A stretch of DNA of 64,000 nucleotides, taken from an uncultured virus (IMG/VR IMGVR_UViG_2061766007_000136). Its lineage: Duplodnaviria > Heunggongvirae > Uroviricota > Caudoviricetes. The notes under the pieces were generated by a model. It was given only the letters and a program-made list of their open reading frames with translations, made no database searches and was not told where the DNA came from. Shown in pieces: positions 1,695 to 62,973 of this stretch (positions are counted from its first letter, which is position 1; each line of letters starts with the position of its first letter). The stretch lies in the IMG/VR virus record IMGVR_UViG_2061766007_000136, one strand, 5' to 3'. Both the position numbers and the translations under genes were made by a program.

Positions 1695-1710
1695 CGGCTG
1701 TCGAAAACAA

Positions 1711-1748
1711 AAGCCATGCGGAAAAATCAGCACCGCATGGCTTTTTTA
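1711..1748 (+). terminator. Rho-independent terminator
   Basis: AAGCCATGCGG/CCGCATGGCTT stem followed by a T run, just after the cca stop. Confidence 0.8.
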
Positions 1749-1749
1749 T

Positions 1750-1778
1750 TTGCATTTCCGAAAATTGGATGTATATTA
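1750..1778 (+). promoter_or_regulatory. Recurrent phage promoter motif TTG(CA/AC)W-N16-YATATTA (representative copy)
   Basis: TTGCAT-16 nt-TATATTA; the same motif and spacing recur about 19 times upstream of genes on both strands. Confidence 0.75.
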
Positions 1779-1823
1779 ATAGTGTTGACGTAGAAAACAT
1801 TTAAAATCAAAGGAGAACATATA

Positions 1824-3029
1824 ATGAAGAATCTGATTGTTTTACGTGGAGCACCTGGTTGTGGCAAGTCCACTTTTATCGAGAAATGGAATTTGAAGCA
1901 GTACACCCTGTGCGGTGATTCCATCCGTGAGTTGTTCGAGTCCCCTGTTATGGACAACGAGCATGGTAAGCATACCCTTTCACAGAATCATGATACGGAA
2001 GTCTGGGGCTTGCTCCTGAACCTGCTTGAGCAACGCATGTCGCGTGGCGAGCTGTGCGTCGTGGACGCGACGCACTCCCGTCCGCAGGACTTCCAGAAGT
2101 ACAAGAAGTTCATCGAGAAGTATCGCTACCGCGCATACTGCGTGTCGTTCGCTGACGTACCGATTGAGGTCTGCAAAAAGCAGAATCTGATGCGTCCTGA
2201 GTACAAGCACGTCCCAGAGGAAGTCATCGACAAGATGTACGCACGGATGCAGTCGTTTGACGTGCAGGGCTACTTCAAGGTCGTGAACCACAATGACGAC
2301 GAGACCATCCGCAACATCGTCAACAACTACAAGCCGTTCGATGCGGACAAGTACAGCAAGGTCGTCGTGTTCGGAGACATCCACGGTTGCTTTCAGCCGT
2401 TGAAGGAATACTTCGACGCTAATCCATTCGACGACAACAATCTGTACGTTTTCACGGGCGACTACACCGACCGTGGCATACAGAACAAAGAGGTCGTCGA
2501 GTGGCTGTTGCAACACTACGAGAAGAAGAATGTCATCCTGCTTGAGGGCAACCACGAGCGTTGGGTGCGCGAGTACGCGAACGGCGACTACGACGAGGAG
2601 CTGAAAAAGGGAGAGAAGGACAAGTGCAAGAGTTCCGAATTCTTCTACAATACCGCTCCCCAATTGGTTGATTTCGACAAGAAGGACTTGCGGCAGTTGT
2701 GCCGTTCCTTCCAGACCATCGCATTCTTCAAGTTCGACGGCAAGCGGTACTTCGTGAACCACACGGGTGTCGGATTCCTGCCTGAGCAACTGCTCAGGGA
2801 GAAGGCGAGCCAGTTTGTCTACACGAGCGGTGGCAACGGAACGTACAACGACCCTGTTGACCAGTGGTTCGAGGAGCATGAGTTGGAGCGCAACCCAGAC
2901 TTGTTCCAAATCCACGCCCACCGCAACACGGCGAACGTCCCGATTCGTGCGTCGAAGAATTCGTTCAACCTCTGCGACACCATCGAGGCTGGCGGAAACC
3001 TCCGCATACTTGAAATCACGAAGGACTGA
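1824..3029 (+). CDS. Polynucleotide kinase-phosphatase (P-loop kinase + calcineurin-like metallophosphoesterase)
   Basis: GAPGCGKST Walker A and VVDATH; GDIHG, GDYTDRG and GNHE phosphoesterase motifs; no ligase domain fused. Confidence 0.88.
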   Translation: MKNLIVLRGAPGCGKSTFIEKWNLKQYTLCGDSIRELFESPVMDNEHGKHTLSQNHDTEVWGLLLNLLEQRMSRGELCVVDATHSRPQDFQKYKKFIEKYRYRAYCVSFADVPIEVCKKQNLMRPEYKHVPEEVIDKMYARMQSFDVQGYFKVVNHNDDETIRNIVNNYKPFDADKYSKVVVFGDIHGCFQPLKEYFDANPFDDNNLYVFTGDYTDRGIQNKEVVEWLLQHYEKKNVILLEGNHERWVREYANGDYDEELKKGEKDKCKSSEFFYNTAPQLVDFDKKDLRQLCRSFQTIAFFKFDGKRYFVNHTGVGFLPEQLLREKASQFVYTSGGNGTYNDPVDQWFEEHELERNPDLFQIHAHRNTANVPIRASKNSFNLCDTIEAGGNLRILEITKD

Positions 3030-3030
3030 A

Positions 3031-3729
3031 ATGAATGTCCGTGAATACATCGAACAAGCGATAGACAGGTTCTTCCTGTATCATCCTACATGGTATGTGA
3101 ACCATGACAGGAAGAACCAGCTTATCGAACGTTACGAGAAGAAATACGCTGGCATGGACATGGGGCGGTGCAGTCTGAACATGCTTCAAGTCCTCAACAC
3201 CAACAAGGTGATGTCGCCTTGGACTGAGGAGGAGCGCAACAGGCAACTTGATGAATCCGCATGGCACGAGGCAGGTCATATCCTAGGGTATTTCATCCTC
3301 AACTATCCTCCGAGATACGCATATATCAGCGAGGACGGAGATGGAATCGTCACACCCGATAATGAGGTCGCCAGCATGTTCTATGAACTCAAGAGAATCG
3401 CCTATGTCGGCGGATGGGCTTTCGAGAGAAAGCACTCCACTCTTGACAATTGCAAGATAAGCATAGGGTACGATTATCCAAGGGTGGAAAATTCAGACTG
3501 GGTGATGCTTGGAAAACCGTCAATCGAGGAAATGGACTGTCTTTCACGATACCTGTTCTACCACAACGGGACGGAGGCATTCGCCAAGCTCATCCACGAC
3601 GAGCTGGTTTCAAGGAAACGCCTTTCCCGAAAAAGAATCAGGATGATTTACGAAGAAGGCATGAAAATCAAAAAAATTTCCAAATGCATTTGCAATCTTC
3701 GAAAATGGATGTATATTAGTGGTTGTTAG
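3031..3729 (+). CDS. HEXXH metallopeptidase-like protein (M41/M50-like)
   Basis: AWHEAGH motif; ATG immediately after the previous stop. Confidence 0.55.
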   Translation: MNVREYIEQAIDRFFLYHPTWYVNHDRKNQLIERYEKKYAGMDMGRCSLNMLQVLNTNKVMSPWTEEERNRQLDESAWHEAGHILGYFILNYPPRYAYISEDGDGIVTPDNEVASMFYELKRIAYVGGWAFERKHSTLDNCKISIGYDYPRVENSDWVMLGKPSIEEMDCLSRYLFYHNGTEAFAKLIHDELVSRKRLSRKRIRMIYEEGMKIKKISKCICNLRKWMYISGC

Positions 3730-3804
3730 GAAAAATCGACAAAAAACATGCAGTTTGAATTGACTTTTCCGAAAAACGTACCATATTATATTGTAGTCAT
3801 TTAA

Positions 3805-3881
3805 GTCCCTGTAGTTCAGTTGGACAGAACGGCAGTTTCCTAAACTGCATGTCGCAGGTTCGAGTCCTGTCGGGGATACCA
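3805..3881 (+). tRNA. tRNA-Arg(CCT)
   Basis: Cloverleaf: GTCCCTG/CGGGGAT acceptor, GCAGT-TT CCT AA-ACTGC anticodon arm, GTTCGAGT T loop, CCA end; promoter motif at 3760-3788. Confidence 0.95.
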
Positions 3882-3917
3882 AAGTGTTCAAAGAGTCGTC
3901 ATAAAGGAGTTCGACAC

Positions 3918-4208
3918 ATGAAGAAAGAATCGGTCAAAATCACGAGCGCAAAGAAGAAGCAATTGTCCGTCGCAAGCATCATCGGGATGTCGATGGGGGC
4001 TGAAATCACCAACTACAACCGTCAAATCAAGAATGCGCCGAATGAAAGCGTCAGGAAAGCCTTGATAAAGGCACGTGACTCCTATCTTGAAAAGACGAAA
4101 AAGAAGAAGATTGAAAAGGAAATCGGCAAGCTCAACATTGAAATCCAGAGGAAGACTGCGGAACTCGAAGCTCTGAACCAGCTCAAAATCAAACCGACTG
4201 TCAAATAA
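3918..4208 (+). CDS. Hypothetical basic coiled-coil protein
   Basis: AAGGAG RBS and ORF. Confidence 0.6.
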   Translation: MKKESVKITSAKKKQLSVASIIGMSMGAEITNYNRQIKNAPNESVRKALIKARDSYLEKTKKKKIEKEIGKLNIEIQRKTAELEALNQLKIKPTVK

Positions 4209-4237
4209 GAAAAGCAAAACACACAAGGAGAAAACAC

Positions 4238-6451
4238 ATGAACAAAATGAATTCGTTCAAAATCTCGTCCGCCAAGACCGCCTCTAAAGCCGTCGAAGTC
4301 CCAGTCAACCATATTTTCGTCATTGACTGCTCAGGCTCGATGTCATACGACCTGCCGAAAATCCGCAAACAGTTGAAGAACAAGCTCCCGTCCCTTCTGA
4401 AACAGAACGACACGGTTTCCCTCGTGTGGTTCTCTGGCAAAGGGGAATTTGGCAAGCTGGTCGAGAAAGTCCACATCAACGACGTTTTGGAGTTGCGGCA
4501 ATTGAACGATGCCATCGACCGTTGGCTCAAGCCGATTGGTTGCACTGGCTTTGTCGAACCTCTTCGCACAGTCAAGGACTTGTGCGACACGAACGACGTG
4601 TACTCCATGATGTTCCTTACTGATGGATGTGACAACGAATGGCAACGTTCTGAAATCCTGTCCGCCAGCGAAGACCTCGCCACCCTGCTCGCAAACGCCG
4701 TTTTTGTCGAATACGGCTACTACTGCAACCACTCCCTCCTGACCGAAATGGCTGAAAAGGTGAACGGAGCAGTCCTCTTTGCCGAAGACTTCGACAAGTA
4801 CGACCCGATTTTCGACGGCATCTGCAAGCGCAAGCTGTCGAACAAGCGAATTGAAGTCGAAGTCGGCACCCCCGCCGAAAACTTCGTGTGGAGCGTCTCC
4901 GACGCTGGCGCGATTTCCTACAAGGTCGAAAACGGCAAAGTCTATGTCCCCGAAGACGTGGATGCAGTTTACTGGTTTGACAGCAATGCAACCACCACGG
5001 CTACCGACAGCATGAACTGGAAGCCCCTGTACCAAGGTCTGTCCGCCCTCGCCATGAACCGCAAGTCGGAATTCGTCAAGAAGCAGTTGTCCGACATCGG
5101 CGACGAAGCCCTGTACAACCAGTACGCCAACGCTTTCGGCAAGCAGAACCTCTACGACTTCGCCGACCTCCTGAACCGTGCTGGCACGGACAGCAAGCTC
5201 CGTTTCACGAAAGGCAGGAAAGTCGGTCTGAAACCGAATGAAAATGCGTACACCGTCTTGCAGTTGCTCAACGAGCTTCGCGAAGCGGATGCGCAAATCA
5301 ATCTTGAGAAGTTACAGTACAACCGCATCGGTCGTAGTACCGAAATGAGCGACGAGCTGACGAAAGCCGAGACCGAGGCGTTGAGCGAATCCATCGCCAA
5401 CTCCTCCAATCTCCGTGAAATCAAAGCCCATACGGACGCGGCTGCGCAACTCGCTCAGGAACGCGCACAGATGAAATTCGTCTCGAAGAAGAACATTGTT
5501 CGTATCAATGACTTCACGTACAACGAAACGCGCCCGAACGTCTCCATGCGCGTCAACATCGACGGCACGGTCGGTCTTCCGTCCGATGCCCCGTCCGCGT
5601 TGCCTCATGACTTCCCGACCAGCATCTTCCGCAATTTCACCGTCGTCCGCGACGGCATGGTGAACATCGCGAAGCTTCCTGTCATCATCTCACAGCCGAC
5701 CGTTGACAAGCTGAAAGCAAAAGGCGTTCCGATGACCATCGAAGACGACAGTGTGCGCGTGAATTCGCAGTCCTCAGTCCTCTTCGCCACTCCGAACCCG
5801 AACGGCATCAAATGCACCATCGACCTGCGCTCGATGCCTGTCATCAACGCCAAGATGGTCAAGTCCGTCAGCGCACAGGCTCTCGCGGACAACCTCTACG
5901 AGAACATGAAGTGCAAAGCGGCTGTCAAGGTGTACAAGGGCTTCCTCGACGAACTGGAACCGCCTGAAAAGTCCGCTGGCATCAAAGACCAGTACGGCGA
6001 AGACTGCGCCGAATACCTGAAGTCCCTCGGCATCACGGACGGCGGATTCTCCCCGAAGACCAAACAGGCTGAAGCGACCGACAAGTACATGGCAGTCGAA
6101 ATGGCTATCAAGTTCAAGGGCTTGTCCAAAATCCCGTCCTTCAACGAATTCAAGAAGAAGCTCACGTCAGGCAAGTTCAACGCAGGTGACATGTTGCTGA
6201 AACCCGCCTACGACGAATGCATGGCAAAGAAAGCCTCCATGTCTCAAAAGGATTTCATCGGCTGGCTCAAGACCAACATCAAGACGGCGAACAAGAAAGC
6301 TGGCAATCTCTACGAGAAAGCCATCGAGGACAAGTTCTCCATCGTCGTCGGTCAGACGTGGTTCAACGACCTCGATTTGAACAATCCGACGCTCGTTTCT
6401 AACGGCGTTGACGTGACGTTTGAAATCAAGGACACTGAAGTGGAAATCTGA
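4238..6451 (+). CDS. vWA domain-containing protein
   Basis: N-terminal IFVIDCSGSM MIDAS and FLTDG motifs; 737 aa with strong codon bias. Confidence 0.85.
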   Translation: MNKMNSFKISSAKTASKAVEVPVNHIFVIDCSGSMSYDLPKIRKQLKNKLPSLLKQNDTVSLVWFSGKGEFGKLVEKVHINDVLELRQLNDAIDRWLKPIGCTGFVEPLRTVKDLCDTNDVYSMMFLTDGCDNEWQRSEILSASEDLATLLANAVFVEYGYYCNHSLLTEMAEKVNGAVLFAEDFDKYDPIFDGICKRKLSNKRIEVEVGTPAENFVWSVSDAGAISYKVENGKVYVPEDVDAVYWFDSNATTTATDSMNWKPLYQGLSALAMNRKSEFVKKQLSDIGDEALYNQYANAFGKQNLYDFADLLNRAGTDSKLRFTKGRKVGLKPNENAYTVLQLLNELREADAQINLEKLQYNRIGRSTEMSDELTKAETEALSESIANSSNLREIKAHTDAAAQLAQERAQMKFVSKKNIVRINDFTYNETRPNVSMRVNIDGTVGLPSDAPSALPHDFPTSIFRNFTVVRDGMVNIAKLPVIISQPTVDKLKAKGVPMTIEDDSVRVNSQSSVLFATPNPNGIKCTIDLRSMPVINAKMVKSVSAQALADNLYENMKCKAAVKVYKGFLDELEPPEKSAGIKDQYGEDCAEYLKSLGITDGGFSPKTKQAEATDKYMAVEMAIKFKGLSKIPSFNEFKKKLTSGKFNAGDMLLKPAYDECMAKKASMSQKDFIGWLKTNIKTANKKAGNLYEKAIEDKFSIVVGQTWFNDLDLNNPTLVSNGVDVTFEIKDTEVEI

Positions 6452-6549
6452 CACGAACAATAAAAAAGCGCATGAATTGAAAAAAATTCTCCATCTCCAC
6501 TTGACTTTTTCAATTCATGCGCCATATTAAAGAAAAATGCTGACATGAA

Positions 6550-6595
6550 AAGACTCGAACAGCATTAAAACCAAACAGGAACAAACAGAGTCTAG
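6550..6595 (+). promoter_or_regulatory. 5' leader hairpin with ACAGCA motif (putative protein-binding operator RNA)
   Basis: AAGACTC-GA-ACAGCA...GAGTCTAG lies between the promoter (6501-6529) and the RBS; it matches the terminal stem of the permuted tRNA-like RNAs. Confidence 0.7.
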
Positions 6596-6617
6596 TACAA
6601 AAACAAAGGAGAAAAAC

Positions 6618-8155
6618 ATGTCGAAGATGATTTTTTCAGACGCACTGAAGAACACGCTGAATGATGAGAAGTCCATCACCGAGAACGGGGCGATAGGTTA
6701 CAAGACCTCGAAGTCCGCGCTCGTTGATTTCAACTTCAACGCATCATCGTTCCGCAACAAGGACGAGCAGGAGATTCGCGACGCTTTCGCGGAGGCTTAC
6801 AATGAGAATCCGTTGCTGGCTGTCAAGCTCCTGTTCATGACTGGCGACATCCGTCAGGGCATGGGTGAGCGTCGCACGTTCCGCACGTGCTTCAAGTGGC
6901 TCGCCGAATTCCATGCCAATGACGCGAAGAAGGTCGTGTCCCTCATCCCTGAGTATTCACGTTGGGACATCCTCGTGGACATGCTCGGCACTTCCGTCGA
7001 TACGGAGGCGTTCGGACTGCTCAGGAACCAGTTGGACACCGACACGGACAATTGCCTGAACGGTAAGCCGATTTCGCTCCTCGCGAAGTGGTTGCCTTCA
7101 GTCAACACGTCCAGCCAGACCGCCCGTAAGAAGGCGCGTTCCATCTGTGCCCGTCTCAAGCTGACGGAGCGCACGTACCGCAAGAGGCTGTCACAGCTTC
7201 GCAACTACTCGAACGTCGTCGAGACGAAGATGAGTGCGAACAATTGGGACGGCATCAAGTACGAGGCTGTTCCGTCCAAGGCTAACCTCCTGTACAAGGA
7301 GGCGTTCATGAAGCATGACGAGACCCGCCGCACGGCGTACCTCGATGCTCTTGAGAAGGGCGAGACCAAAATCAACTCCAGTGCGTCGTTCCCTTATGAA
7401 ATCGTTTCACGTTACCACTCCTACGCAGAGGATGCCACGCTTGAGCAGATGTGGAAGGCATTGCCCGACTACACCAACGGCAAGGGCGAGAACACGATTT
7501 GCGTTGTGGACGGAAGCGGTTCCATGTCGTCCAAAATCGGAGGTACGTCCGTCTCCGCAGAAGATGTCGCGCAAAGCCTCGGCATCTACTTCGCTGAGAA
7601 GATGCCTGGTCAGTTCCACAACCAGTACATCACGTTCTCCGAGCGTCCTCAACTCGTCAATTTCGACAACTGCGACACGTTGAAGAGCAAGATTGACGAG
7701 GCGAACCGNNNNNNNNNNNNNNNNNNNNNNNNNNNNNNNNNNNNNNNNNNNTTCTCCGCACGGCGAAGAAGCACAAGCTCTCGCAGAGCGACATGCCGAA
7801 GAGCATCCTCATCCTGTCTGACATGGAATTCGATTCCTGTGTCAGCTTTGGAGACAGGACTCTCTACTGGATGTCGGAGCAGGACAAGCTCAATGCTTGC
7901 AAGACCCTGTTCGAGACCATCGGCGACGAGTACAAGGAGGCGGGCTACGAGCTTCCGAAGCTAGTCTTCTGGAACATCATGTCCCGCACTGGAACCGTCC
8001 CGATGCAGGAAAACAAGAATGGTGTCGTACTGGTGAGCGGGTTCAGCCCGACCATCGCAAGCATGGTTTTCAGCCAGAAGAACAGCCCTTACGAGGTGTT
8101 GCTTGAGAAGCTGAATTCCAAGAGGTACGAGCCTATCGAGCAGGCTCTTGCGTAA
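6618..8155 (+). CDS. DUF2828-family protein (TROVE/Ro60-like helical domain + vWA), interrupted by an N gap
   Basis: TENGA, DIRQGMGERR, RWDIL, SLLAKWLPS, YEAVPSKA, VVDGSGSM, ILSDMEFD, LVFWN and LVSGFSP motifs; two ORF halves either side of the gap at 7709-7750. Confidence 0.85.
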
Positions 8156-8173
8156 GAGGACGTAGCTGACGGG

Positions 8174-8213
8174 AAAGCAGACTGGAAAGGAAACAATCCA
8201 GTCTGCTTTTTTT
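8174..8213 (+). terminator. Rho-independent terminator
   Basis: AAAGCAGACTGGA/TCCAGTCTGCTTT stem followed by a T run. Confidence 0.8.
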
Positions 8214-8229
8214 GTGAAAGAGGAATGCA

Positions 8230-8802
8230 ATGAAAAGACCTTACAATCCAATCGAAGACGGTCATATCAGCCGAAAGAAGATGAATGAATTTCTCCAAGC
8301 GAAGCAACAGAGGAAGAAGTACATCCTGTATGATAAAGTGGGCGACTTGTGGAGAATCATGGCTTGCAATACGATTTGGATGAGCATATATGGAGGAGGG
8401 ATAACTGTCTGGGAAGGGGATATTGGAGGATTTGTCGAATCGGAAGACAATCTTTCACATGATGGAAACTGCTGGATTTACGATACGGCGAAATCAGTCG
8501 GTCATGCGATTGTAAAGGACAATGCGCTTATCAAGCATTCCTCCATTGTAGAACAATACGCAATCGTATCTGGTGATGCAGTGTTGAATGATTGCACAAT
8601 AGTATCTGGAAATGCGACAGTATGTGACAAGGTTGTGACCAACGGAAATGTGTTCATAGTGGACGATGCCGTAGTGTGCGACGAAGCAAAACTGAACGGC
8701 GCAATCTATGTGTGTGGAAATTCGTGCGTCTGCGGACGTGCCAATGTATATACGTATAAAGGCGATTCAAAGATAATAGAAGGAGACATGGTGGTATGCT
8801 GA
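8230..8802 (+). CDS. Phage protein with left-handed beta-helix (hexapeptide-like) repeats
   Basis: GGFVESEDNLSHDGNCW followed by VxGxAxV repeats. Confidence 0.75.
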   Translation: MKRPYNPIEDGHISRKKMNEFLQAKQQRKKYILYDKVGDLWRIMACNTIWMSIYGGGITVWEGDIGGFVESEDNLSHDGNCWIYDTAKSVGHAIVKDNALIKHSSIVEQYAIVSGDAVLNDCTIVSGNATVCDKVVTNGNVFIVDDAVVCDEAKLNGAIYVCGNSCVCGRANVYTYKGDSKIIEGDMVVC

Positions 8803-9914
8803 TAGAAGATTTTAAAAAGACTATTCCAGATGTAATTGAGCTTATGAAAATTACACCACAAAATCCAAAGTGGCATGGAGAAGGCGATGTATGGACGCAT
8901 ACGCAGATGGTCATGGACGCATTGCATCTGATGGATGAATATCATTCTTTAACGGATATTGAACAAAAAGTGCTGGATTATGCATGTTTATTGCATGATA
9001 TTGGAAAAATTGAATGCACCCGTGTCGAAGAAGGGGAGATTACATCTCGTGGACATTCTTTTAGAAGTTCCAAAATGGCTCGCAAATTGATGTGGAATGT
9101 TGGTTTTAATGGGGAAAAACTTCTTGAATTCAGGGAAAGTGTATGCGCTTTGATTCGTATGCACGAAAAACCATTGTACTTTTTCAATGATGCAGAAGAA
9201 GACGAATATGAAGCGAAAATGAGTGTAAGACGTTTGTCTTGTTTCACTCCTGCTCCTTATTATAATCTCAACATGTTGCATATTCTTTCATTTGCTGATA
9301 TGAATGGAAGGATATGCAATGAAAAAACCAATTCTTTTGATTCAGTAGATTTGTTCAGGGAATGTGCCTTTGAAAATGACTGCCTTTATCAGCCTGCCCC
9401 ATGCTATGATGACTTTTCTCGTTATTTATTTCTAAACGGAAAGAAGATGTATCCCAATCAGAGAATGTATGACAACACATGGGGAAAAGTATGCATCATG
9501 TCTGGGCTTCCTGCTTCAGGAAAAACGACATGGATTGAAAAGAACCGTGCGGACAAACCAATTATTTCACTTGATGAAATCAGACGGGAAAACGGAATAA
9601 AGCCGTCGAGATGCCAAGGCAAGGTCATGGATATAGCTTTCAATCAGGCAAAGGAGTATCTCAGGAAGCATCAGGAGTTCACATGGGATGCCACTTGTCT
9701 AAATCCAGATGTCAGGGCTTTAATCATCAAGCTTTGCATGAATTATCACGCATTTGTCTCATTGTCTTATTTTGAAGTAAGTGATGCGGAAAGAGTGGAA
9801 CGCAATGCAAATAGAAAATGGGTGGTTCCAGACAATGTAATGGATGAAATGAAGGAAAATGTCATGCCTCCGATATATAGCGAAGCACATTCTGTTTCGT
9901 GGAATTGTCATTGA
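8796..9914 (+). CDS. HD-domain phosphohydrolase fused to a P-loop (AAA_33-like) kinase
   Basis: HGEGDVWTHT and LLHDIGK; C-terminal GLPASGKTT and WDAT. Confidence 0.85.
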   Translation: MLIEDFKKTIPDVIELMKITPQNPKWHGEGDVWTHTQMVMDALHLMDEYHSLTDIEQKVLDYACLLHDIGKIECTRVEEGEITSRGHSFRSSKMARKLMWNVGFNGEKLLEFRESVCALIRMHEKPLYFFNDAEEDEYEAKMSVRRLSCFTPAPYYNLNMLHILSFADMNGRICNEKTNSFDSVDLFRECAFENDCLYQPAPCYDDFSRYLFLNGKKMYPNQRMYDNTWGKVCIMSGLPASGKTTWIEKNRADKPIISLDEIRRENGIKPSRCQGKVMDIAFNQAKEYLRKHQEFTWDATCLNPDVRALIIKLCMNYHAFVSLSYFEVSDAERVERNANRKWVVPDNVMDEMKENVMPPIYSEAHSVSWNCH

Positions 9915-9987
9915 AATCGTTTGCAATTTCGGAAAAATGGTGTATATTAATTAAAAAGAGCAACATGAAAACCAAAGGAGTGACATC

Positions 9988-10698
9988 ATGAAACTAAAAA
10001 CTGAATATCTTGAAGAAATCAAAAATCAATTTGAACAGGACTGGAACAAATTGCAGGAGAATCTGAATGAGAAATTCGGGAAGCGCACGTTCAAGGACAT
10101 CTTCGACATGACTGAAACAATCATTGCGGATGAAGATTTATGTTTTGAATACCGCAAGATTTTCAAGGAAGCCGATGTCTGGACGAGATTTAGCGAATTC
10201 TCTCTGTATGTCGAAACAAGCACGGACAACATAGTCCGTGAATACAACAGGCTCTACGACAACATGTTTTTCGATTTCATCAATGACGGGCAGTGCCACA
10301 TTGTCAAGCTCACGTACAAGTACAAAGGTTCGGGAAAGGAATGGCATGAATATATGGTCGTCACCACAGACCTGTACAACATGGATGAATTCATGTTCAA
10401 GGAAACAATTCTCCGCAGGTCTCAATATAGCAAGAATGATTTTTTCAATGTAGAATACAAGCCACTCGGAACCGAGGAATACTACAGGCTCATGAGCCTG
10501 ATAGCCGACAGGAAGAATTACACGGACGATGATGAATTGGTCTTGTTTGAAAGCAAGCTCTATGACGAATTCTACGATTCCATCGACGGAATCGAGGACA
10601 TGAAGCCGTTCAAGAAGCTCAACATCGAGAAGTTAAAGAAGAATCTGACAAAAAAGAAAAGAGTAAATGACCATGCCGAAATACGATTACAAATGTGA
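9988..10698 (+). CDS. Hypothetical protein (paralog of 12789..13409)
   Basis: RBS and ORF; shares CH(I/M)VK...H(E/K)Y...Y(Y/W)(R/K)(L/I) pattern. Confidence 0.6.
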   Translation: MKLKTEYLEEIKNQFEQDWNKLQENLNEKFGKRTFKDIFDMTETIIADEDLCFEYRKIFKEADVWTRFSEFSLYVETSTDNIVREYNRLYDNMFFDFINDGQCHIVKLTYKYKGSGKEWHEYMVVTTDLYNMDEFMFKETILRRSQYSKNDFFNVEYKPLGTEEYYRLMSLIADRKNYTDDDELVLFESKLYDEFYDSIDGIEDMKPFKKLNIEKLKKNLTKKKRVNDHAEIRLQM

Positions 10699-10858
10699 AA
10701 AGTGCGGGGTGTTTGAAGTCGAGCAGAAGATAACCGACCCGAAGCTAACTGAATGCCCGAAATGTGGCGGAAAGGTGAGACGGTTGATTTCAAAGGGCGT
10801 GTCGTTGCAGTTCAAAGGCGAAGGGTTCTATTGCACGGACTACAAGGACAAGGAATAA
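10667..10858 (+). CDS. FmdB-family zinc ribbon protein
   Basis: MPKYDYKCEKCG...CPKCGG...RRLIS...FKGEGFYCTDY. Confidence 0.9.
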   Translation: MTMPKYDYKCEKCGVFEVEQKITDPKLTECPKCGGKVRRLISKGVSLQFKGEGFYCTDYKDKE

Positions 10859-10876
10859 GTAAAAAGATTAACTGAC

Positions 10877-11410
10877 ATGAAAAAGGGAAGAAAGGAATCA
10901 ATCAGAAAGCAGTGGTTTGGCGAAGGCTTCGTGAAGGAATTCAGCGAACTCGGATACTATGAGAGTTTCAAGCTCTGGAAGGACATCTGTGAAGTCGCGT
11001 TCAAGGATTTCACCGACGACGAACTGAAGAACCCAGTGTTCGTCAAGAACATGCAGTCGCTTTTCATTGACGAATCCATCCATCATTTCATTCGGTACTT
11101 CTTCGCCACAGCGATATGCCTCGGCATGTTCGGTGACAAATGCTTCGAGAATTCAAGGAATCTTCTGACAGAACAAGGCAACGACGAGGAGTTCAAGAAC
11201 AAGATAACGCACCTCGTGAAATTCGGTATCAACATGACCAAGGATGAGAAAAGACAGAGCCATGAATACATGAACCATGTGTATTTGAAAGAATGCGGTT
11301 ATTCATACGCAGTATGCAAGCTCAACGCCAAGAAATCCGAAGCGAAGGAATTCTTCGACAATTTCGACGACTTAGCTCAAGGCTACTATCTTTCAAAGAA
11401 TCTGGACTGA
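10877..11410 (+). CDS. Hypothetical protein, tandem paralog family member 1
   Basis: LGYYES..L and FIDESI...IRY motif shared with the next three genes. Confidence 0.6.
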   Translation: MKKGRKESIRKQWFGEGFVKEFSELGYYESFKLWKDICEVAFKDFTDDELKNPVFVKNMQSLFIDESIHHFIRYFFATAICLGMFGDKCFENSRNLLTEQGNDEEFKNKITHLVKFGINMTKDEKRQSHEYMNHVYLKECGYSYAVCKLNAKKSEAKEFFDNFDDLAQGYYLSKNLD

Positions 11411-11441
11411 TTTGGAAAAAAGATTTCAAAGGAGTAGTATC

Positions 11442-11891
11442 ATGACGGAGCAAGAAATCAAGGAAAAACTTCAAAGCAACCTCGACGGGATTTTCGACGG
11501 TCTTGGCTTCTATGAGACAGTGGAGCTGTTTCTGGAAATGATTGATGTCATTTCTCACATGGACGGTTATAAAGTCAAATATGTGGTCAAGCCGAATTTC
11601 CAGAAGATGCTGTTTGACAAATCAATCCCGTATCATGTAAGGATGACAATGATAAGATTGATGATTAATAGCGAATGCCCACTCAAAAGAGAACTGTTGA
11701 GTGGGAAAGAGATTTGTGACTGGATACGTTCGAATTTTTATTTAAAAGACAAGGAAATGAGTGCAAAATTGGATTGTATTCGCCACACATTGAACCCGTC
11801 GTTTCTTTTGGAATCATCAAAAGAGAAAAGAAAGGAGTTTTTCAGCAATTTCGACCAGAATGTTGAAAATTACAAAAAAATGAAAAAATAA
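11442..11891 (+). CDS. Hypothetical protein, tandem paralog family member 2
   Basis: LGFYET, MLFDKSIPYHVR, SECP. Confidence 0.6.
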   Translation: MTEQEIKEKLQSNLDGIFDGLGFYETVELFLEMIDVISHMDGYKVKYVVKPNFQKMLFDKSIPYHVRMTMIRLMINSECPLKRELLSGKEICDWIRSNFYLKDKEMSAKLDCIRHTLNPSFLLESSKEKRKEFFSNFDQNVENYKKMKK

Positions 11892-11896
11892 TCCAA

Positions 11897-12310
11897 ATGG
11901 AAAGGGTATTGAGCATGACGAAAGAAGAAATCAAGAAAAGACTGCACAACGGAAACTGCCATGAAATCCTTGGAAGTGCCAGTTTCCTTGAAGCGGTGAA
12001 ACTGTGTTTTGAAATAAACGAAACCATTACCGACATGCCAACGGAGGAAGTGCAAGAGATTGCAACGAATGTCAAGAGTATGATTCTGGACGAATCCGTT
12101 CCGTTGCATGTAAAGTATATGTTCATCAGGATTTTGTGCGAAAGCGAATGCCCACACAAAAGAATGCTGTTGGAAGGGCAAGACGAGTTGAAGAACATCA
12201 TCTCTATCGGAGTTGGAAACTACACAGGTGGATATGATGAGCACTCCGTTGAGCAATTAAAATACATCCGTTGCAATTTCAAAAGATTGAAAGACAAGGA
12301 ACAACAGTGA
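11897..12310 (+). CDS. Hypothetical protein, tandem paralog family member 3
   Basis: FLEAVKL, MILDESVPLHVKY, SECP. Confidence 0.6.
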   Translation: MERVLSMTKEEIKKRLHNGNCHEILGSASFLEAVKLCFEINETITDMPTEEVQEIATNVKSMILDESVPLHVKYMFIRILCESECPHKRMLLEGQDELKNIISIGVGNYTGGYDEHSVEQLKYIRCNFKRLKDKEQQ

Positions 12311-12792
12311 AACAATATGAAAAAAACCAGCGCAATGTCAGACTGATGTTTCATGGACTTGATTTTTATAATTCCATGATGCTGTACAAGAAATTAATTT
12401 TATCATTTTCCTTAATGTCGGCAGAACATATTATTAAATTCATCAAGCCATTTCAAAAAATGTTGCTTGATGAAGAAATTCCATTGTACATCAGATATCT
12501 TTTCATATACATTATTATTTGTGAATATTTTTGTGAAAAACAGCATATAAAAGCATTGCTATGCAATAATAAACGTCTAACAAGCATAGCAAGAGCATCA
12601 ATTTTGCCTTCTGATTTAAGAAAATGGACTGAACAAAAAGATGCCATCAGAATAGGATATATAAAAAAAGGTCTTCACAGTGAAGATGTGCTGAAACTTC
12701 TGAATGGAAACAAAGAAAGTTTCGAGCGGTTTGATAAAATGGCTACAGAATGGTATGAAAAGGAAAAATTGAGTGAAGGATATCTGAAATGA
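12307..12792 (+). CDS. Hypothetical protein, tandem paralog family member 4
   Basis: LDFYNS, MLLDEEIPLYIRY; GTG start overlaps the upstream stop. Confidence 0.55.
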   Translation: MKQYEKNQRNVRLMFHGLDFYNSMMLYKKLILSFSLMSAEHIIKFIKPFQKMLLDEEIPLYIRYLFIYIIICEYFCEKQHIKALLCNNKRLTSIARASILPSDLRKWTEQKDAIRIGYIKKGLHSEDVLKLLNGNKESFERFDKMATEWYEKEKLSEGYLK

Positions 12793-13409
12793 CAAGCAAG
12801 GAAAAATATTTTGAAGATATGAGACAACTCGCCGAATTCCAGTGGAAGACATACGAGAAGTTACTCAATTCAAAAATTCGTGGAAAAACGGGTCGCGCAA
12901 TCATTGAAAAGATTCTGGAAATACATGCCGACAGCACGAATGTGCTGTATTACATTGGATTGTTCTTGTTAAAAGATGTGGCGGAGGATACGATAATAGA
13001 AGATTACCTGTATCTCAATCCAGAAGTAAAAGATTATGTCGCGGAGCGAATCAAGTTTTTAAAGAATCTTTCCTACGCATTTGAATGCGCATGCGAATGC
13101 CACATGGTCAAAATCATGCTTGACCCTTGTTGCGAAGGTTGCAAACCATATCATAAATATGCCATTACGACAAAGCACGTCCATTTGATGAATGAGCAGG
13201 AGAAGCTTGATTTTGCAAGAGGCGTGACAAATACTTACAGAAAGGAATTTAAAGGTCTTGAAAGCAAATTCATGTCTTTCTCGGACTACTGGAAAATACT
13301 CGAAGCATTGGCTGGTGAAACAAGCTATGTTCAAAGAAACAATCCAGTGGCTCCAAAATACTTTGACAAAGCTATATTAGACAAAATCTACGATTCCATT
13401 GAAGAATAA
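12789..13409 (+). CDS. Hypothetical protein (paralog of 9988..10698)
   Basis: ORF coupled to the upstream stop; shared C-terminal pattern. Confidence 0.6.
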   Translation: MTSKEKYFEDMRQLAEFQWKTYEKLLNSKIRGKTGRAIIEKILEIHADSTNVLYYIGLFLLKDVAEDTIIEDYLYLNPEVKDYVAERIKFLKNLSYAFECACECHMVKIMLDPCCEGCKPYHKYAITTKHVHLMNEQEKLDFARGVTNTYRKEFKGLESKFMSFSDYWKILEALAGETSYVQRNNPVAPKYFDKAILDKIYDSIEE

Positions 13410-13424
13410 AAATGGAGACGGAAA

Positions 13425-14165
13425 ATGGAAAAGATACTCAAATATCCTAGAACGCAACATCTGCAAGGCTCGCGTCTGCAAGCTGGGGACGAGGACTTGT
13501 CGCAAGTCCCCTTTTCCGAAATCCGTGGCAGGAAAATCGTCGTCGAGGAAAAGATNNNNNNNNNNNNNNNNNTTCAGCTCCGAAGGCGACCTGCTCTTGC
13601 AGAGCCGTGGGCATTATCTGACAGGCGGTGCTCGTGAAAAGCATTACAACCTGTTCAAGGAATGGGCGAATCACCATGTAGATGCACTGTTCGACATTCT
13701 TGGCGACAGGTATATCCTGTACGGAGAATGGATGTACGCAAAGCACACCGTGTTTTATGACGCGCTCCCACACTACTTCTTCGAATTCGACATTTGGGAC
13801 AAGCAGAGGGAAATCTTCCTTGATACGGCGACAAGGCATGCGATGCTGAAGGATTCGCCTGTGCTGTCCGTCCCAGTCATCACGGAACGCGCCTTCGACA
13901 AGCTGGAGGACTTGACCAGTCTCATCGGGCATTCGCGGTACATCACCGACCATCACATCGAGGCGTTGAAGGAATACTGCGTCCAGAACCCGAAATGCGG
14001 ACCAATCGAGGACAGGCTGAACGAAACCGACCATTCCACGAAGATGGAAGGAATCTACATCAAAATCGAGGAAAATGGTGAGACGGTAGGAAGGCTGAAA
14101 TTCGTCCGCAATGAATTCGTGCAGATGATTGTAAGTTCGAACGAGACATCGAGCCACTGGCTCGC
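13425..14165 (+). CDS. ATP-dependent RNA ligase family protein (broken by gaps, 3' end uncertain)
   Basis: KYPRTQHLQGS, VVEEK (motif I, then gap), YGEWM, FEFDIWD, EGIYIK, LKFVR. Confidence 0.82.
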
Positions 14166-14349
14166 NNNNNNNNNNTCCGCATTACTTCTTCGAATTCGAC
14201 ATCTGGGACAAGCAGAGGGAAATCTTCCTTGATACGGCGACGCGCCATGCGATGCTGAAGGATTCGCCTGTGCTGTCCGTCCCAGTCATCACGGANNNNN
14301 NNNNNGAGGGAGACGATATATCAACCAGTAATAGAAAAGGAGTACAATT

Positions 14350-61055: not shown

Positions 61056-61061
61056 CAAAAT

Positions 61062-61133: not shown

Positions 61134-61648
61134 ATCATAAAATCTTCTGTTTTTCAAAGAACACTAATTAATATGGCTCGCTTTTCTGAAAAGTCAAGCC
61201 GATTTGTCGAAAAATCCAGATTTTTCCCATCGTCCTGCTGTTACCAAGACAACAGGAAAAATCCAGAGGTGGCAATCGCCTCATCCACTATCGGCTTCCG
61301 CTTGCTCCCGCCAAGGTGGATTAGGGACGAGGTGGAACTCTCACTTACGGATAGCGTTGGCGACCGTCCTGCATGAATGCCGTCATGCACCAGCGAGCGT
61401 ACAATCTTCAATGAAAAACCCACTCAAAAGATTGATTCATGCTGGCTCGGCGATGTCTAGACAATGCCGAGGGTGTTTTGACCTCTTGCGAGGCATGATT
61501 TGAAAGAAAATCAAGACGCTGTTTTTTCTTTTTGCATGTTGCCATNNNNNNNNNNCCCACTCAAAAGATTGATTCATGCTGGCTCGGCGATGTCTAGACA
61601 AAGCCGAGGGTGTTTCGACCTCTTGCGAGGCGTGATTTGAAAGAAAAT

Positions 61649-61776
61649 CAAGACGCTGTTTTTTCTTTTTGCATGTTGCCATTACACCAAGTCTTCCTTT
61701 CGGTTGACTGCGGGATTCGAACCCGCATCTTTTCTTTAACAGAGAAATAAGAAGAAATAGTCGCTGTAAGCGTCTT
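61649..61776 (-). ncRNA. Permuted tRNA-like RNA copy 1
   Basis: AAGACGC-UU-ACAGCGA...GCGUCUUG; T arm GCGGG-UUCGAAU-CCCGC, GAAA-capped acceptor stem, then D arm; own promoter motif at 61794-61821. Confidence 0.8.
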
Positions 61777-61841
61777 TTTTAACTTACACTATTAATATGA
61801 TACGTTTTTCTGAAAAGTCAAGTCATATTGATGATTTTTTA

Positions 61842-61932
61842 TGGCGGAGGGTGAAGGATTCGAACCTTCGGTGCGCTTTCGCGACACGGCGACTTTCGAG
61901 GTCGCTACCATAAACCGCTCGGACAACCCTCC
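61842..61932 (-). tRNA. tRNA-Ser(CGA)
   Basis: GCGAC-CT CGA AA-GTCGC, long variable arm, G-CCA end. Confidence 0.95.
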
Positions 61933-61947
61933 ATCGGGAAAATCCTA

Positions 61948-62038
61948 TGGCGGAGGGTACAGGATTCGAACCTGTGAGCCATGTTTCAGACTATCGAGCT
62001 TCCAACTCGACGCAATAGACCAACTCTGCCAACCCTCC
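61948..62038 (-). tRNA. tRNA-Ser(GGA)
   Basis: TCGAG-TT GGA AG-CTCGA, long variable arm, G-CCA end. Confidence 0.95.
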
Positions 62039-62049
62039 ACTTTTAAAAA

Positions 62050-62176
62050 CAAGGCGCGTAATGTTTCATAATAGACGCTCTGACCAATCTGAGCTACCTC
62101 GTCTTTTCGGACGCAGGACGGGACTCGAACCCGCGACATTCTATGCCCATGAATGAATGTTTGCTGTAAACGCCTT
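62050..62176 (-). ncRNA. Permuted tRNA-like RNA copy 2
   Basis: AAGGCGU-UU-ACAGCAA...GCGCCUUG; AUAGA/UCUAU anticodon-like stem, T arm, looped acceptor stem, D arm UAGCUCAGAUUGGUCAGAGC. Confidence 0.88.
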
Positions 62177-62191
62177 AAAAATCTTATGCAA

Positions 62192-62269
62192 TGGCAGGAG
62201 CAACAGGATTCGAACCTATACCATGAGATTTGGAGTCACATATGCTAGCCATTGAAACACCATGCTCCT
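62192..62269 (-). tRNA. tRNA-Trp(CCA)
   Basis: AGGAGCA/TGCTCCT acceptor, CT CCA AA loop, G-CCA end. Confidence 0.92.
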
Positions 62270-62317
62270 GCTTGTCATACAATTAATATACACCGACTTT
62301 CTGAAAAGTCAAGTAAT

Positions 62318-62425
62318 CAAGACACGTTTTTTTCTTGCGTTAGACCGCTCCGCCAAGCCTTTGCAGGCTACGAGATTCGAACTCGTGTCATCTTCCAGAT
62401 GAGAATGATTTGCTGTCCGCGTCTT
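62318..62425 (-). ncRNA. Permuted tRNA-like RNA copy 3
   Basis: AAGACGC-GG-ACAGCAA...GUGUCUUG; ACGAG-UUCGAAU-CUCGU, AGCCU-GCAA-AGGCU, GCG-GAGCGGUCUAA-CGC. Confidence 0.85.
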
Positions 62426-62435
62426 ATTAAAAAAC

Positions 62436-62576
62436 CAAGGCACAGTTTTGTAATTGTCCTTCGTGTACGCCACACCACCTAGCCGTCCCTTTCGGGAGAC
62501 TGCGGGATTCGAACCCGCGAGTTGCTTTCGCATGCTAAAGGATTTCATCCAAATGTATATTTGCTGCGTGTGCCTT
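62436..62576 (-). ncRNA. Permuted tRNA-like RNA copy 4
   Basis: AAGGCAC-AC-GCAGCAA...GUGCCUUG; variable-arm-like UGC-GAAA-GCA, T arm, UCCC-GAAA-GGGA acceptor cap, D-arm-like hairpin, UCCUU/AAGGA stem. Confidence 0.85.
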
Positions 62577-62858: not shown

Positions 62859-62962
62859 AAAGGGCTGGAGGTCTCGAACCTCCGATTCCTATCCACCACA
62901 AGCGTTTTTCCAATGCGGGGAAGCCTAGGCTTCCAAACTTCCCTGTCCGAACTACGCCCTTT
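62859..62962 (-). ncRNA. tRNA-like element (acceptor stem + T arm, non-canonical interior)
   Basis: AAGGGC/GCCCUU ends, UAGUUC after the 5' strand, GGAGG-UUCGAGA-CCUCC T arm; no canonical anticodon arm or CCA. Confidence 0.45.
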
Positions 62963-62973
62963 TCTCAAAGGAT

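What the first reader, a model, noticed from the sequence alone, without database searches (positions are those of the whole stretch)
61649..62576. Array of circularly permuted tRNA-mimic RNAs (YrlA-like topology) with a novel conserved terminal module
Four - strand elements (61649-61776, 62050-62176, 62318-62425, 62436-62576) are interleaved with real tRNAs. Each reads 5' stem, RCAGC(A/G)A, linker, T arm (GUUCGA loop), acceptor stem closed by a GNRA-type or A-rich loop, D arm with GG, linker, 3' stem. This is a tRNA opened at the anticodon and sealed at the acceptor end, so it can be neither charged nor decode. Copies 2 and 4 retain an anticodon-like stem, and copy 4 a variable-arm-like hairpin. 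Terminal stems covary: AAGACGC/GCGUCUU, AAGGCGU/GCGCCUU, AAGACGC/GUGUCUU, AAGGCAC/GUGCCUU. Established: bacterial YrlA Y RNAs have this T-before-D topology on a Ro60-binding stem. Here the YrlA-type GNCGAA Ro-binding motif is absent from the terminal stems and ACAGCA is conserved instead; no canonical Ro60 is visible in the window.
Basis: partly seen in the sequence, partly recalled or inferred. Interest (0 to 1): 0.95.

Follow-up and report, generated by a model that had tools for sequence, protein, structure and literature searches.

The report
Phage Ro-like protein's tRNA-mimic RNAs
Four small RNA genes in this rumen phage's tRNA cluster are back-to-front tRNA look-alikes with a conserved handle, members of a large apparently undescribed RNA family that always travels with a phage relative of the Ro60 RNA-binding ring protein.

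Summary
All four minus-strand elements have a covarying terminal helix, RCAGCRA, a T arm, a sealed acceptor stem and a D arm.

They belong to a large family. On 102 sequences, 96.2% of cells pair, against 69.4% in shuffles.

Rfam places them only below threshold on YrlA (28.8 bits in the window, up to 48.2 in relatives; cut-off 69). The YrlA GNCGAA motif is absent.

The likely partner is DUF2828 (window 6618-7964). Its model matches Ro60 structures only. DUF2828 is present in 15 of 15 RNA-bearing contigs tested. In 7 of 8 diverse GenBank DUF2828 phages, 2-6 handle RNAs lie beside the gene.

The handle also occurs without the tRNA body, and as a closed hairpin inside normally ordered tRNA-like genes.

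Best reading: Y-RNA-type partners of a Ro60-like protein within a phage RNA-repair gene set. Binding and function are inferred.

The break lies 5' of the anticodon arm, not in the anticodon loop. Of 102 relatives, 27 still encode NCCA at the sealed end.

Earlier notes of this scan describe handle-less permuted tRNA mimics in other phages. I found no paper describing this family.

The parts
61649..61776 (-). Element 1 (128 nt): stem 61770-61776 / 61650-61656, ACAGCGA 61761-61767, anticodon-like hairpin 61731-61747, T arm 61710-61726, acceptor sealed by GAAA 61690-61709, D arm 61673-61687
   Evidence: R1 76.2 bits; fold; coordinates; covered by short RNA-library contigs, e.g. 154 nt = 61652-61800 with no differences
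62050..62176 (-). Element 2 (127 nt): ACAGCAA 62161-62167, T arm 62118-62134, bulged acceptor sealed by an A-rich loop 62097-62117, canonical D arm 62077-62094
   Evidence: R1 70.4 bits; Rfam YrlA 28.8 bits at 62072-62142, model positions 23-86 of 114
62318..62425 (-). Element 3 (108 nt): ACAGCAA 62410-62416, hairpin with 7-nt loop 62388-62402, T arm 62370-62386, 5-bp acceptor sealed by GCAA 62356-62369, D arm 62337-62353
   Evidence: R1 67.7 bits; fold z -2.23
62436..62576 (-). Element 4 (141 nt): GCAGCAA 62561-62567, small hairpin 62540-62550, variable-arm-like hairpin 62521-62535, T arm 62502-62518, acceptor sealed by GAAA 62481-62501, D arm 62463-62475
   Evidence: R1 54.5 bits
6618..7964 (+). 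DUF2828 + DUF7788 protein (Ro60-like ring plus vWA domain), the proposed protein partner; an N run at 7709-7751 interrupts the ORF
   Evidence: Pfam PF11443 E 9e-37; phrog_850 'RNA-binding protein' E 4e-97; the model of a 486-aa relative matches only Ro60 structures at E<=1e-5
6550..6595 (+). Handle-like mini element in the DUF2828 leader: 6-bp stem, ACAGCAU, 3' strand then G, between a promoter-like site and the ribosome-binding site
   Evidence: Read; one-mismatch pattern hit. Weak on its own; 7 of 15 related contigs have a handle RNA within 600 nt upstream of DUF2828
324..14232 (+). RNA-repair gene island around DUF2828: CCA-adding enzyme 324-1694, kinase-phosphatase 1824-3029, vWA protein 4238-6451, HD-kinase 8796-9914, RNA ligase 13399-14232
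   Evidence: Pfam hits; context only
61794..61821 (-). Sigma-70-like promoter just upstream of element 1; the same TTGACT repeat recurs at 62285-62312 and 61170-61197
   Evidence: 5 sites found against 3.3 expected, so weak; the repeat is seen

Best explanation
The four elements are genes for stable small RNAs of a large phage family. Each RNA has two modules. The first is a handle: a terminal helix whose 5' strand is followed by single-stranded RCAGCAA, with one unpaired G after the 3' strand. The second is a cargo. Here the cargo is a circularly permuted tRNA body whose T arm and D arm can form the tRNA elbow, whose acceptor stem is sealed by a short loop, and which has no usable anticodon stem.

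I propose that the handle is the binding site of the phage's DUF2828 protein, a Ro60-like ring with a vWA domain. On this reading the RNAs are that protein's Y RNAs. By analogy with Ro60/YrlA, the tRNA-like module would tether tRNA-recognising enzymes to the ring, or gate access to it. The particle would then act in tRNA repair or quality control during infection, for example against host anticodon nucleases.

Shown here: the RNA structure and its covariation, the size of the family, the Ro60 fold of DUF2828, and the genomic linkage. Inferred: binding, tethering, and the repair or quality-control role.
For: Structure. On 102 sequences, 96.2% of cells pair, against 69.4% in shuffles (0 of 500 reach it) and 36-44% when partners are slid. 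The covariation score is 0.73 against 0.19. Sixteen of 21 pairs show double changes. There are about 92 G-U cells against about 16 A-C cells, which fits this strand.

Family size. The model found 195 hits in 80 of those loci. In the genome collection, 38 of 80 loci searched score 50 bits or more.

Partner. DUF2828 is present in 15 of 15 RNA-bearing contigs, and within 10 kb of the matched copy in 12 of 15. Only 707 of 50,697 GenBank phage records carry it. In 7 of 8 DUF2828 phages from different hosts, 2-6 handle RNAs sit beside the gene on the same strand: Bacillus PJN02, Felix O1, Listeria LP-125, Staphylococcus 6ec, Mycobacterium LeBron, Campylobacter F357 and Enterococcus EfV12-phi1. T4 and T5 lack DUF2828 and give only 33.2 bits (a Leu/Gly tRNA junction) and 24 bits.

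Fold. All 12 top PDB matches are Ro60, Rsr or phage Ro60 (E 1.8e-8, TM 0.57).

The handle is the constant part. Copies of 53-91 nt lack the tRNA body. Closed-hairpin versions lie inside normally ordered tRNA-like genes of KVP40, Aeh1 and locus L038.

Context. RNA-repair genes flank DUF2828 here and in LP-125 and LeBron.

Precedent. YrlA is a tRNA mimic encoded near Ro60, and M. smegmatis YrlA is cut by RNase P and receives CCA (PMC4201824, passages).
Against: No binding or expression experiment exists. The RNA-library data are assembled contigs, which cannot prove transcription or map ends.

In this window the array lies about 54 kb from DUF2828. In 3 of 15 contigs the matched copy is more than 10 kb away.

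Sequence profiles do not link DUF2828 to Ro60: the best PDB hit has E 0.061 and is a vWA domain.

Many IMG/VR contigs come from one metagenome and may be related to each other. The model and my regex finder both favour the motif. Aeh1 has no open-ended handle RNA within 5 kb. What the tRNA-like module recruits is unknown.
Confidence: 0.6

Rival explanations
1. They are decoys or sponges for host tRNA-targeting defences such as anticodon nucleases or tRNA-sensing systems. The tRNA body or the anticodon-like hairpins soak up the nuclease. DUF2828 would at most stabilise the RNA.
For: Mini versions keep small hairpins with 7-nt anticodon-like loops such as CUUUUAA, CUUGAAA and CUGAAAA. Anticodon-like hairpins are present in 43 of 102 copies, against 15.9 in shuffles with a maximum of 25. 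The phages carry large tRNA arrays and RNA-repair genes.
Against: The anticodon arm is the least conserved part: it is absent or degenerate in 59 of 102 copies, and copies 2 and 4 of the window lack a canonical one. The invariant part is the handle, which no tRNA has. This reading does not explain the tight linkage to DUF2828.
Confidence: 0.15
2. They are circularly permuted tRNA genes. The ends at the terminal helix would be processed and ligated by the phage kinase-phosphatase and RNA ligase. RNase P, 3' trimming and the CCA-adding enzyme would then open the acceptor end to give a decoding tRNA.
For: NCCA plus a 1-8 nt spacer directly follows the 7-nt acceptor 3' strand in 27 of 102 relatives, where about 1.6 are expected by chance. 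Acceptor stems have at least 6 of 7 pairs in 94 of 102. KVP40 Pseudo-3 is an intact Asn-type tRNA with a 41-nt insert between positions 28 and 29. The window encodes a CCA-adding enzyme, a kinase-phosphatase and an RNA ligase. A neighbouring RNA with the same kind of terminal stem appears head-to-tail in RNA contigs.
Against: The four window copies are sealed by GAAA, GCAA or A-rich loops with no CCA. Their anticodon stems cannot be rebuilt. The mini forms have no tRNA body. No head-to-tail joint was seen for the four elements. No splicing endonuclease was identified.
Confidence: 0.07
3. The handle is only a cis-acting signal: processing punctuation of the tRNA-array transcript, or an operator for DUF2828 autoregulation. 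There would be no trans-acting RNA.
For: Handle copies lie in the leader of DUF2828 in the window and in 7 of 15 contigs. A conserved hairpin abuts the ribosome-binding site in most of the others.
Against: The elements lie upstream of, downstream of, or up to 54 kb from the gene. They carry a conserved and covarying tRNA body. Element 1 has its own promoter-like site.
Confidence: 0.05
4. They are decayed relics, or tail-to-head junctions of tandem tRNA genes misread as units.
For: Dimeric tRNA junctions do score with the model, for example T4 Leu/Gly at 33.2 bits. Chen 2014 warns of the same artefact (passage).
Against: Loops of 2-7 nt seal the acceptor within one unit. The terminal helices covary. 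The four score 54-76 bits. Elements 1 and 2 are single units between ordinary tRNAs. The family is conserved across phages of unrelated hosts.
Confidence: 0.02

Closest known systems
YrlA (Y RNA-like A, Rfam RF02553; Chen et al. 2014, PMC4201824)
   Same: Same order of parts: 5' handle, V hairpin, T arm, sealed acceptor-like stem, D arm, 3' strand. Both are tRNA mimics encoded near a Ro60-type protein and RNA-repair genes. M. smegmatis YrlA is cut by RNase P and gets CCA, which fits the NCCA relics seen here.
   Different: The handle motif is RCAGCAA, not GNCGAAN0-1G. The partner is DUF2828, not a Pfam TROVE Ro60. Scores stay below the Rfam cut-off (28.6-48.2 against 69). Copies come in multiples inside tRNA arrays. 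Handle-only and unpermuted forms exist. None of the 22 phages in their Table S2 is among the DUF2828 phages examined here.
Ro60 with Y RNAs of animals and Deinococcus, and Thermus phage phiLo Ro60 with Yrl1/Yrl2 (PMC12135203)
   Same: A ring protein with a vWA domain plus a small RNA whose 5'/3' stem carries the binding site. The phage encodes both.
   Different: Those RNAs use a CGAA-type motif in a bulged stem. phiLo Ro60 is a recognisable TROVE protein, and no tRNA-like body was reported in the passages I read.
Circularly permuted tRNA genes of Cyanidioschyzon merolae and Thermofilum (recalled; seen only in search listings)
   Same: The 3' part lies before the 5' part. In 27 of 102 relatives there is NCCA plus a short spacer before the 5' end.
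   Different: The break is 5' of the anticodon arm and carries a conserved handle, with no bulge-helix-bulge motif seen. The setting is bacterial phages. Many copies are sealed without CCA.
'tRNA pseudogenes' of Vibrio phage KVP40 (Pseudo-3, -4, -5) and the 122-nt 'tRNA-Val' of Aeromonas phage Aeh1, as annotated in GenBank
   Same: Both are DUF2828 phages. A tRNA body carries a 41-53 nt insert in the anticodon arm: a 5-bp hairpin with a UGAYAA-type loop, followed by a CAGCA / CUGCAA / ACCGCAA motif.
   Different: Gene order is normal, with an open acceptor end and CCA. The hairpin is closed where the window elements have their 5' and 3' ends.

Membership tests
YrlA (RF02553) | Reaches the Rfam gathering score (69 bits) | tested here: not met
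   The window's only YrlA match (element 2) scores 28.8 bits. Fourteen elements in 9 of 10 related loci score 28.6-48.2 bits.
YrlA (RF02553) | GNCGAAN0-1G motif near the 5' end | tested here: not met
   G.CGAA occurs in 0 of 4 window elements anywhere, and in the first 35 nt of 5 of 98 relatives. RCAGCRA occupies positions 10-16 instead.
YrlA (RF02553) | tRNA-like domain in the order V, T arm, closed acceptor-like stem, D arm | tested here: met
   compared with section 6 of PMC4201824.
YrlA (RF02553) | Encoded within about 4 kb of a TROVE-domain Ro60 gene on the same strand | tested here: not met
   None of the 66 window ORFs scanned has a TROVE hit. The Ro60-like DUF2828 gene is about 54 kb away on the other strand. 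In relatives the RNA is adjacent to DUF2828 and on the same strand.
Y RNA in the functional sense (RNA partner of a Ro60-type ring) | Physical binding to the ring protein through the terminal stem | not testable with these tools
   Only co-occurrence (15 of 15; 7 of 8) and the Ro60 fold of DUF2828.
tRNA (RF00005) | Contiguous cloverleaf with anticodon arm and free acceptor end | tested here: not met
   ARAGORN calls none of the four. Rfam at gathering lists none. Only a 30.8-bit partial match lies inside element 1.
Circularly permuted tRNA gene | The 3' part lies upstream of the 5' part, and the two acceptor strands pair | tested here: met
   Acceptor stems have at least 6 of 7 pairs in 94 of 102. 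NCCA is kept in 27 of 102.
Circularly permuted tRNA gene | Joining the ends restores an intact anticodon stem-loop and yields a mature tRNA | tested here: inconclusive
   Some relatives keep pairs 27-28/42-43 and a typical loop (by eye). The four window copies do not. No joined form was seen in RNA contigs, and contigs cannot exclude one.

The most novel reading that the evidence does not exclude
The terminal helix may be an RNA end-joining site. The 5' AAG and the 3' CUUG would be the two halves of a broken hairpin loop, which the phage's kinase-phosphatase and RNA ligase would seal, perhaps on the DUF2828 ring. The permuted RNAs would then become closed or circular molecules equivalent to the closed-hairpin forms of KVP40, Aeh1 and L038. 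If so, these phages run a protein-guided RNA circularisation pathway for permuted RNA genes. Two hints support this. A 264-267 nt RNA next door (62973-63239) has the same AAGACGG/CCGUCUU ends and appears head-to-tail in two metatranscriptome assemblies. The DUF2828 leaders carry a hairpin that looks like the sealed helix end.
Probability: 0.15. Interest if true: 0.9.

Novelty: new variant of a known kind. Interest (0 to 1): 0.8.

Why it matters
Ro60 with its Y RNAs is a conserved but poorly understood RNA-surveillance particle. Bacterial and phage examples have so far been tied to TROVE-annotated Ro60 and the YrlA handle.

This finding links a second, much more common phage protein family to its own RNA family. 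DUF2828 occurs in 707 GenBank phage records, including Felix O1-like, Listeria, Staphylococcus, Enterococcus and Campylobacter phages and cluster L mycobacteriophages. Its RNAs carry a different handle and a modular cargo.

That gives tractable laboratory phage systems for asking what a Ro-type ring with a tRNA mimic does during infection. It also explains many "pseudo-tRNAs" and unannotated gaps in phage tRNA arrays, and it provides a sequence signature for annotation.

Tried and rejected
- blastn of the region against GenBank phages found only tRNA-Ser similarities.
- No whole genome is held for the window.
- phmmer and a profile of DUF2828 against PDB sequences gave no Ro60 hit. Only the fold search did.
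- blastn of the three unannotated RNA-like stretches (62860-63250, 61195-61440, 60900-61130) against all loci held at that point found nothing.
- The fold of 62973-63236 is not unusually stable (z -0.77).
- Look-ups of this scan's own notes by place and by sequence gave nothing.
- Literature searches found no description of a DUF2828-associated RNA. The terms were 'permuted tRNA'+phage, YrlA+phage, DUF2828, TROVE+bacteriophage+'Y RNA', Ro-like+phage+tRNA, and Ro60+phage+tRNA-like. The library lacks most subscription journals.
- RNA-library contigs show no head-to-tail joint for the four elements, and parts of the stretch are uncovered in some runs. Contigs cannot show absence, ends or strand.
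- A possible fifth permuted element at 60905-61057 was not found by the model at E<=1, so I do not count it.
- I considered reading adjacent elements 4 and 3 as one unpermuted unit. I rejected this because pairing within each element is better and elements 1 and 2 stand alone.
- No complex prediction was run, because the tool takes no RNA.
Full report
**Observation**

The minus strand of 60.8-63.4 kb is a phage tRNA array. ARAGORN finds eight tRNAs there, and none overlaps the four elements. Rfam at gathering thresholds sees only tRNAs.

The four elements begin with AAGRCNNNNRCAGCRA, which has exact matches nowhere else in the 64 kb. The combination CAGCRA-N(20-50)-GTTCGARTC occurs four times, against 0.02 expected. 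RCAGCRA alone is not enriched, at 30 against 31.6.

Folding each element alone gives the terminal helix, the T arm and a hairpin-sealed acceptor stem. The z-scores are modest, -0.9 to -2.3.

Copy 1 keeps a complete anticodon-like hairpin with loop CUGUUAA, and copy 3 has one as well. Relatives show that the break lies between the D arm and the anticodon arm, about positions 26-29, not in the anticodon loop.

**A large family**

I scanned IMG/VR with a pattern that fixes only AAGRC, RCAGCRA, the T loop and a final CTTG. Most lie on 100-400 kb contigs, with at least 71 distinct contigs among the 80 listed. By my own estimate, chance would give about 2-3 matches.

Of 102 distinct sequences, 98 have at least 7 of 9 terminal-helix pairs, although only 3 pairs were forced by the pattern.

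On the alignment of the four elements plus these 98 (A1), RNAalifold predicts 21 pairs, 16 of them with compensatory changes. My pair count gives the following:
- 96.2% of cells paired, against 69.4% in shuffles (0 of 500 reach it) and 36-44% when partners are slid by 1-3 columns.
- A covariation score of 0.73, against 0.19 in shuffles.

G-U cells (about 92) far outnumber A-C cells (about 16), which fits an RNA read from this strand.

A covariance model (R1) scores the four window elements 76.2, 70.4, 67.7 and 54.5 bits, with the next hit at 25.9. The four are part of the seed.

In 80 IMG/VR loci (392 kb) the model finds 195 hits at E<=0.001, many of which did not match the pattern. In 33 such full-length copies, positions 10-16 read as follows. 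The model favours the motif, so this is not an unbiased sample.

| Positions 10-16 | Copies |
|---|---|
| ACAGCAA | 17 |
| ACAGCUA | 5 |
| ACUGCAA | 3 |
| ACAGCGA | 3 |
| GCAGCAA | 2 |
| other | 3 |

The same pattern finds 81 loci in the bacterial and archaeal genome collection, mostly gut and rumen MAG contigs. Of the 80 loci searched with R1, 38 score at least 50 bits.

**Anatomy of the tRNA part**
- The T stem has 5 of 5 pairs in 99 of 102 sequences.
- The 7-nt acceptor strands pair at 6 or more positions in 94 of 102.
- The closing loop is usually 5-7 nt.
- In 27 of 102 the loop begins with NCCA followed by a short spacer such as UAU. Others look like decayed versions of that.

The family therefore descends from a tRNA 3'-end/5'-end junction. 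The window copies have lost the CCA and carry GAAA, GCAA or A-rich loops instead.

An anticodon-like hairpin (at least 3 bp, a 7-nt loop with U33 and R37) is present in 43 of 102. Shuffles give 15.9 with a maximum of 25. It is the least conserved part.

**The handle is the constant part**

About 30 model hits are only 53-91 nt long. They consist of the terminal helix, ACAGCAA and small hairpins, with no T arm, acceptor stem or D arm.

In Vibrio phage KVP40 and Aeromonas phage Aeh1, GenBank's "tRNA pseudogenes" and a 122-nt "tRNA-Val" are normally ordered tRNA bodies. Each has a 41-53 nt insert in the anticodon arm: a 5-bp hairpin with a UGAYAA-type loop, followed by CAGCA, CUGCAA or ACCGCAA.

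IMG/VR locus L038 holds similar unpermuted units. Their module hairpin is closed by a tetraloop exactly where the window elements have their ends (read by eye).

The same two-module design therefore exists in both circular permutations.

**The protein partner**

The window encodes no Pfam TROVE protein. It does encode a DUF2828/DUF7788 protein at 6618-7964, which sits inside an RNA-repair island:
- a CCA-adding enzyme;
- a kinase-phosphatase;
- a vWA protein;
- an HD-kinase;
- an RNA ligase;
- an RlaP-family protein further away.

DUF2828 matches phrog_850, annotated "RNA-binding protein". Some GenBank records call it "Ro-like RNA binding protein".

Sequence searches against the PDB do not reach Ro60. 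An AlphaFold model of a 486-aa relative does. That model has pLDDT 91.7 and was built with an alignment of 49 sequences. Its 12 best PDB matches are all Ro60, Rsr or Thermus phage Ro60 (best E 1.8e-8, TM 0.57/0.54), followed only by vWA domains.

**Linkage**

DUF2828 is present in 15 of 15 RNA-bearing IMG/VR contigs tested. It lies within 10 kb of the pattern-matched copy in 12 of 15 (with positions). By contrast, tblastn finds DUF2828 in only 707 of 50,697 GenBank phage records.

In 7 of 8 GenBank DUF2828 phages from different hosts and families, 2-6 handle RNAs lie directly beside the gene on its strand:

| Phage | Handle RNAs beside DUF2828 |
|---|---|
| Bacillus PJN02 | at least 6, two of them tRNA-like at 79.7 and 74.9 bits |
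| Felix O1 | 4, one tRNA-like at 58.4 bits |
| Listeria LP-125 | 3 |
| Staphylococcus 6ec | 3 |
| Mycobacterium LeBron | 3, one at 58.3 bits |
| Campylobacter F357 | 2 |
| Enterococcus EfV12-phi1 | 4 |
| Aeromonas Aeh1 | none of the open-ended type within 5 kb |

In these phages the stem sequences differ (AGACC, UAGGAAUC, UGGACUC and others). ACAGCAA and the unpaired 3' G are kept.

T4 and T5, which lack DUF2828, give only 33.2 bits (the Leu/Gly tRNA junction) and 24 bits.

In the window itself, a handle-like mini element lies at 6550-6595 in the DUF2828 leader. It has a 6-bp stem and ACAGCAU. Seven of 15 related contigs have a handle RNA within 600 nt upstream of DUF2828. Most of the rest carry a conserved hairpin (NNYCUUG-UCC-CAAGRNN) next to the ribosome-binding site (by eye).

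**Caveats**
- Many IMG/VR contigs share one source metagenome.
- My finder and the model are biased towards the motif.
- In the window the array is 54 kb from the gene.

**Expression**

The best DNA holders are bovine gut metagenomes. Contigs from four metatranscriptome runs of two studies cover the elements. One example is a 154-nt contig spanning 61652-61800 with no differences, and its end lies near a promoter-like site. Contigs cannot prove transcription or map ends.

**Comparison with what is known**

YrlA has the same order of parts and the same kind of partner (PMC4201824; abstract, passages, section 6 and Table S2 read). Four things differ:
- The elements reach only 28.6-48.2 bits against the Rfam cut-off of 69.
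- They lack GNCGAA.
- They pair with DUF2828 rather than a TROVE Ro60.
- The 22 phages in that paper (phage G, CcrColossus, cluster C mycobacteriophages) carry 469-552 aa TROVE Ro60 proteins.

Other papers I checked by passages:
- phiLo Ro60 binds two CGAA-type Yrl RNAs (PMC12135203).
- A LeBron overexpression screen calls gp53 Ro-like but names no RNA (PMC13148394).

Six full-text searches found no description of this RNA family.

Notes of this scan on other phages describe permuted tRNA mimics without a handle or a partner. I did not test those notes.

**Verdict**

This is a real, widespread and apparently undescribed RNA family. It is best read as the Y-RNA-type partners of a Ro60-like phage protein. 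Function is inferred by analogy. The rival readings are decoy, permuted tRNA gene and cis signal. The bolder end-joining idea remains open and testable.

Noticed in passing
window 62973-63239 (-): An unannotated stretch between tRNA-Gly and tRNA-Leu has the highest depth in three RNA libraries (34-80, against 2-10 beside it). In two runs the contig runs head-to-tail (63236 or 63239 joined to 62973), giving a circular or tandem form of 264-267 nt. Its ends are AAGACGG ... CCGUCUU plus UA, the same kind of terminal stem as the four elements, but without RCAGCAA. No Rfam hit.
   Followed up: partly
window 61440-61545 and 61556-61668: About 110 nt on either side of the N run 61546-61555 are near-identical (3 differences). 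The lower-coordinate copy (61440-61545) repeats the 3' end of element 1. This looks like an unmerged scaffold overlap, not a second gene.
   Followed up: no
window 63345-63400 (-), after the HNH ORF 63401-64000: A T arm plus acceptor 3' strand plus CCA, with no 5' half in view, directly follows an HNH endonuclease ORF. It may be the 3' exon of a tRNA split by an intron or homing-endonuclease insertion that runs off the window.
   Followed up: no
window 60905-61127 (-): A tRNA-like sequence with a CAU anticodon loop and an odd D arm (about 61055-61127) is not called by ARAGORN. It is followed by a 150-nt unit with a 9-10 bp terminal helix, a T arm and ACAGUGU in place of the motif. The model does not detect this unit.
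   Followed up: partly
L132 (KVP40 179301-179416, 180967-181213); L135 9181-9302 (Aeh1): GenBank 'tRNA-Pseudo-3/4/5' and a 122-nt 'tRNA-Val' are intact tRNA bodies with a conserved hairpin-plus-motif insert in the anticodon arm. They are unpermuted relatives of the window elements, in phages that carry DUF2828.
   Followed up: partly
L220-L228 (upstream of DUF2828 in G004-G012): A conserved leader hairpin with covarying outer pairs (CCUCUUG-UCC-CAAGAGG type) lies about 10 nt before the DUF2828 ribosome-binding site in 8-9 of 15 contigs. It resembles a sealed version of the terminal helix end and could be an autoregulatory operator.
   Followed up: no
L053 350-437; L028 4843-4894; L003 3963-4030; L020 3161-3516; L005 598-897: Related phage tRNA arrays also hold other Rfam and ARAGORN matches. 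There is a partial OLE RNA match (53.4 bits, cut-off 50) and a type-P1 twister match below its cut-off (49.4 against 67.2). There is an HDV-like ribozyme match below its cut-off (38.4 against 44). There are also tmRNA genes.
   Followed up: no
L038 2480-3300 (-): Tandem units in which tRNA 5' parts and 3' parts alternate, with module hairpins closed by tetraloops (UAAC, GUUU). The permuted and unpermuted readings coexist in one array.
   Followed up: partly
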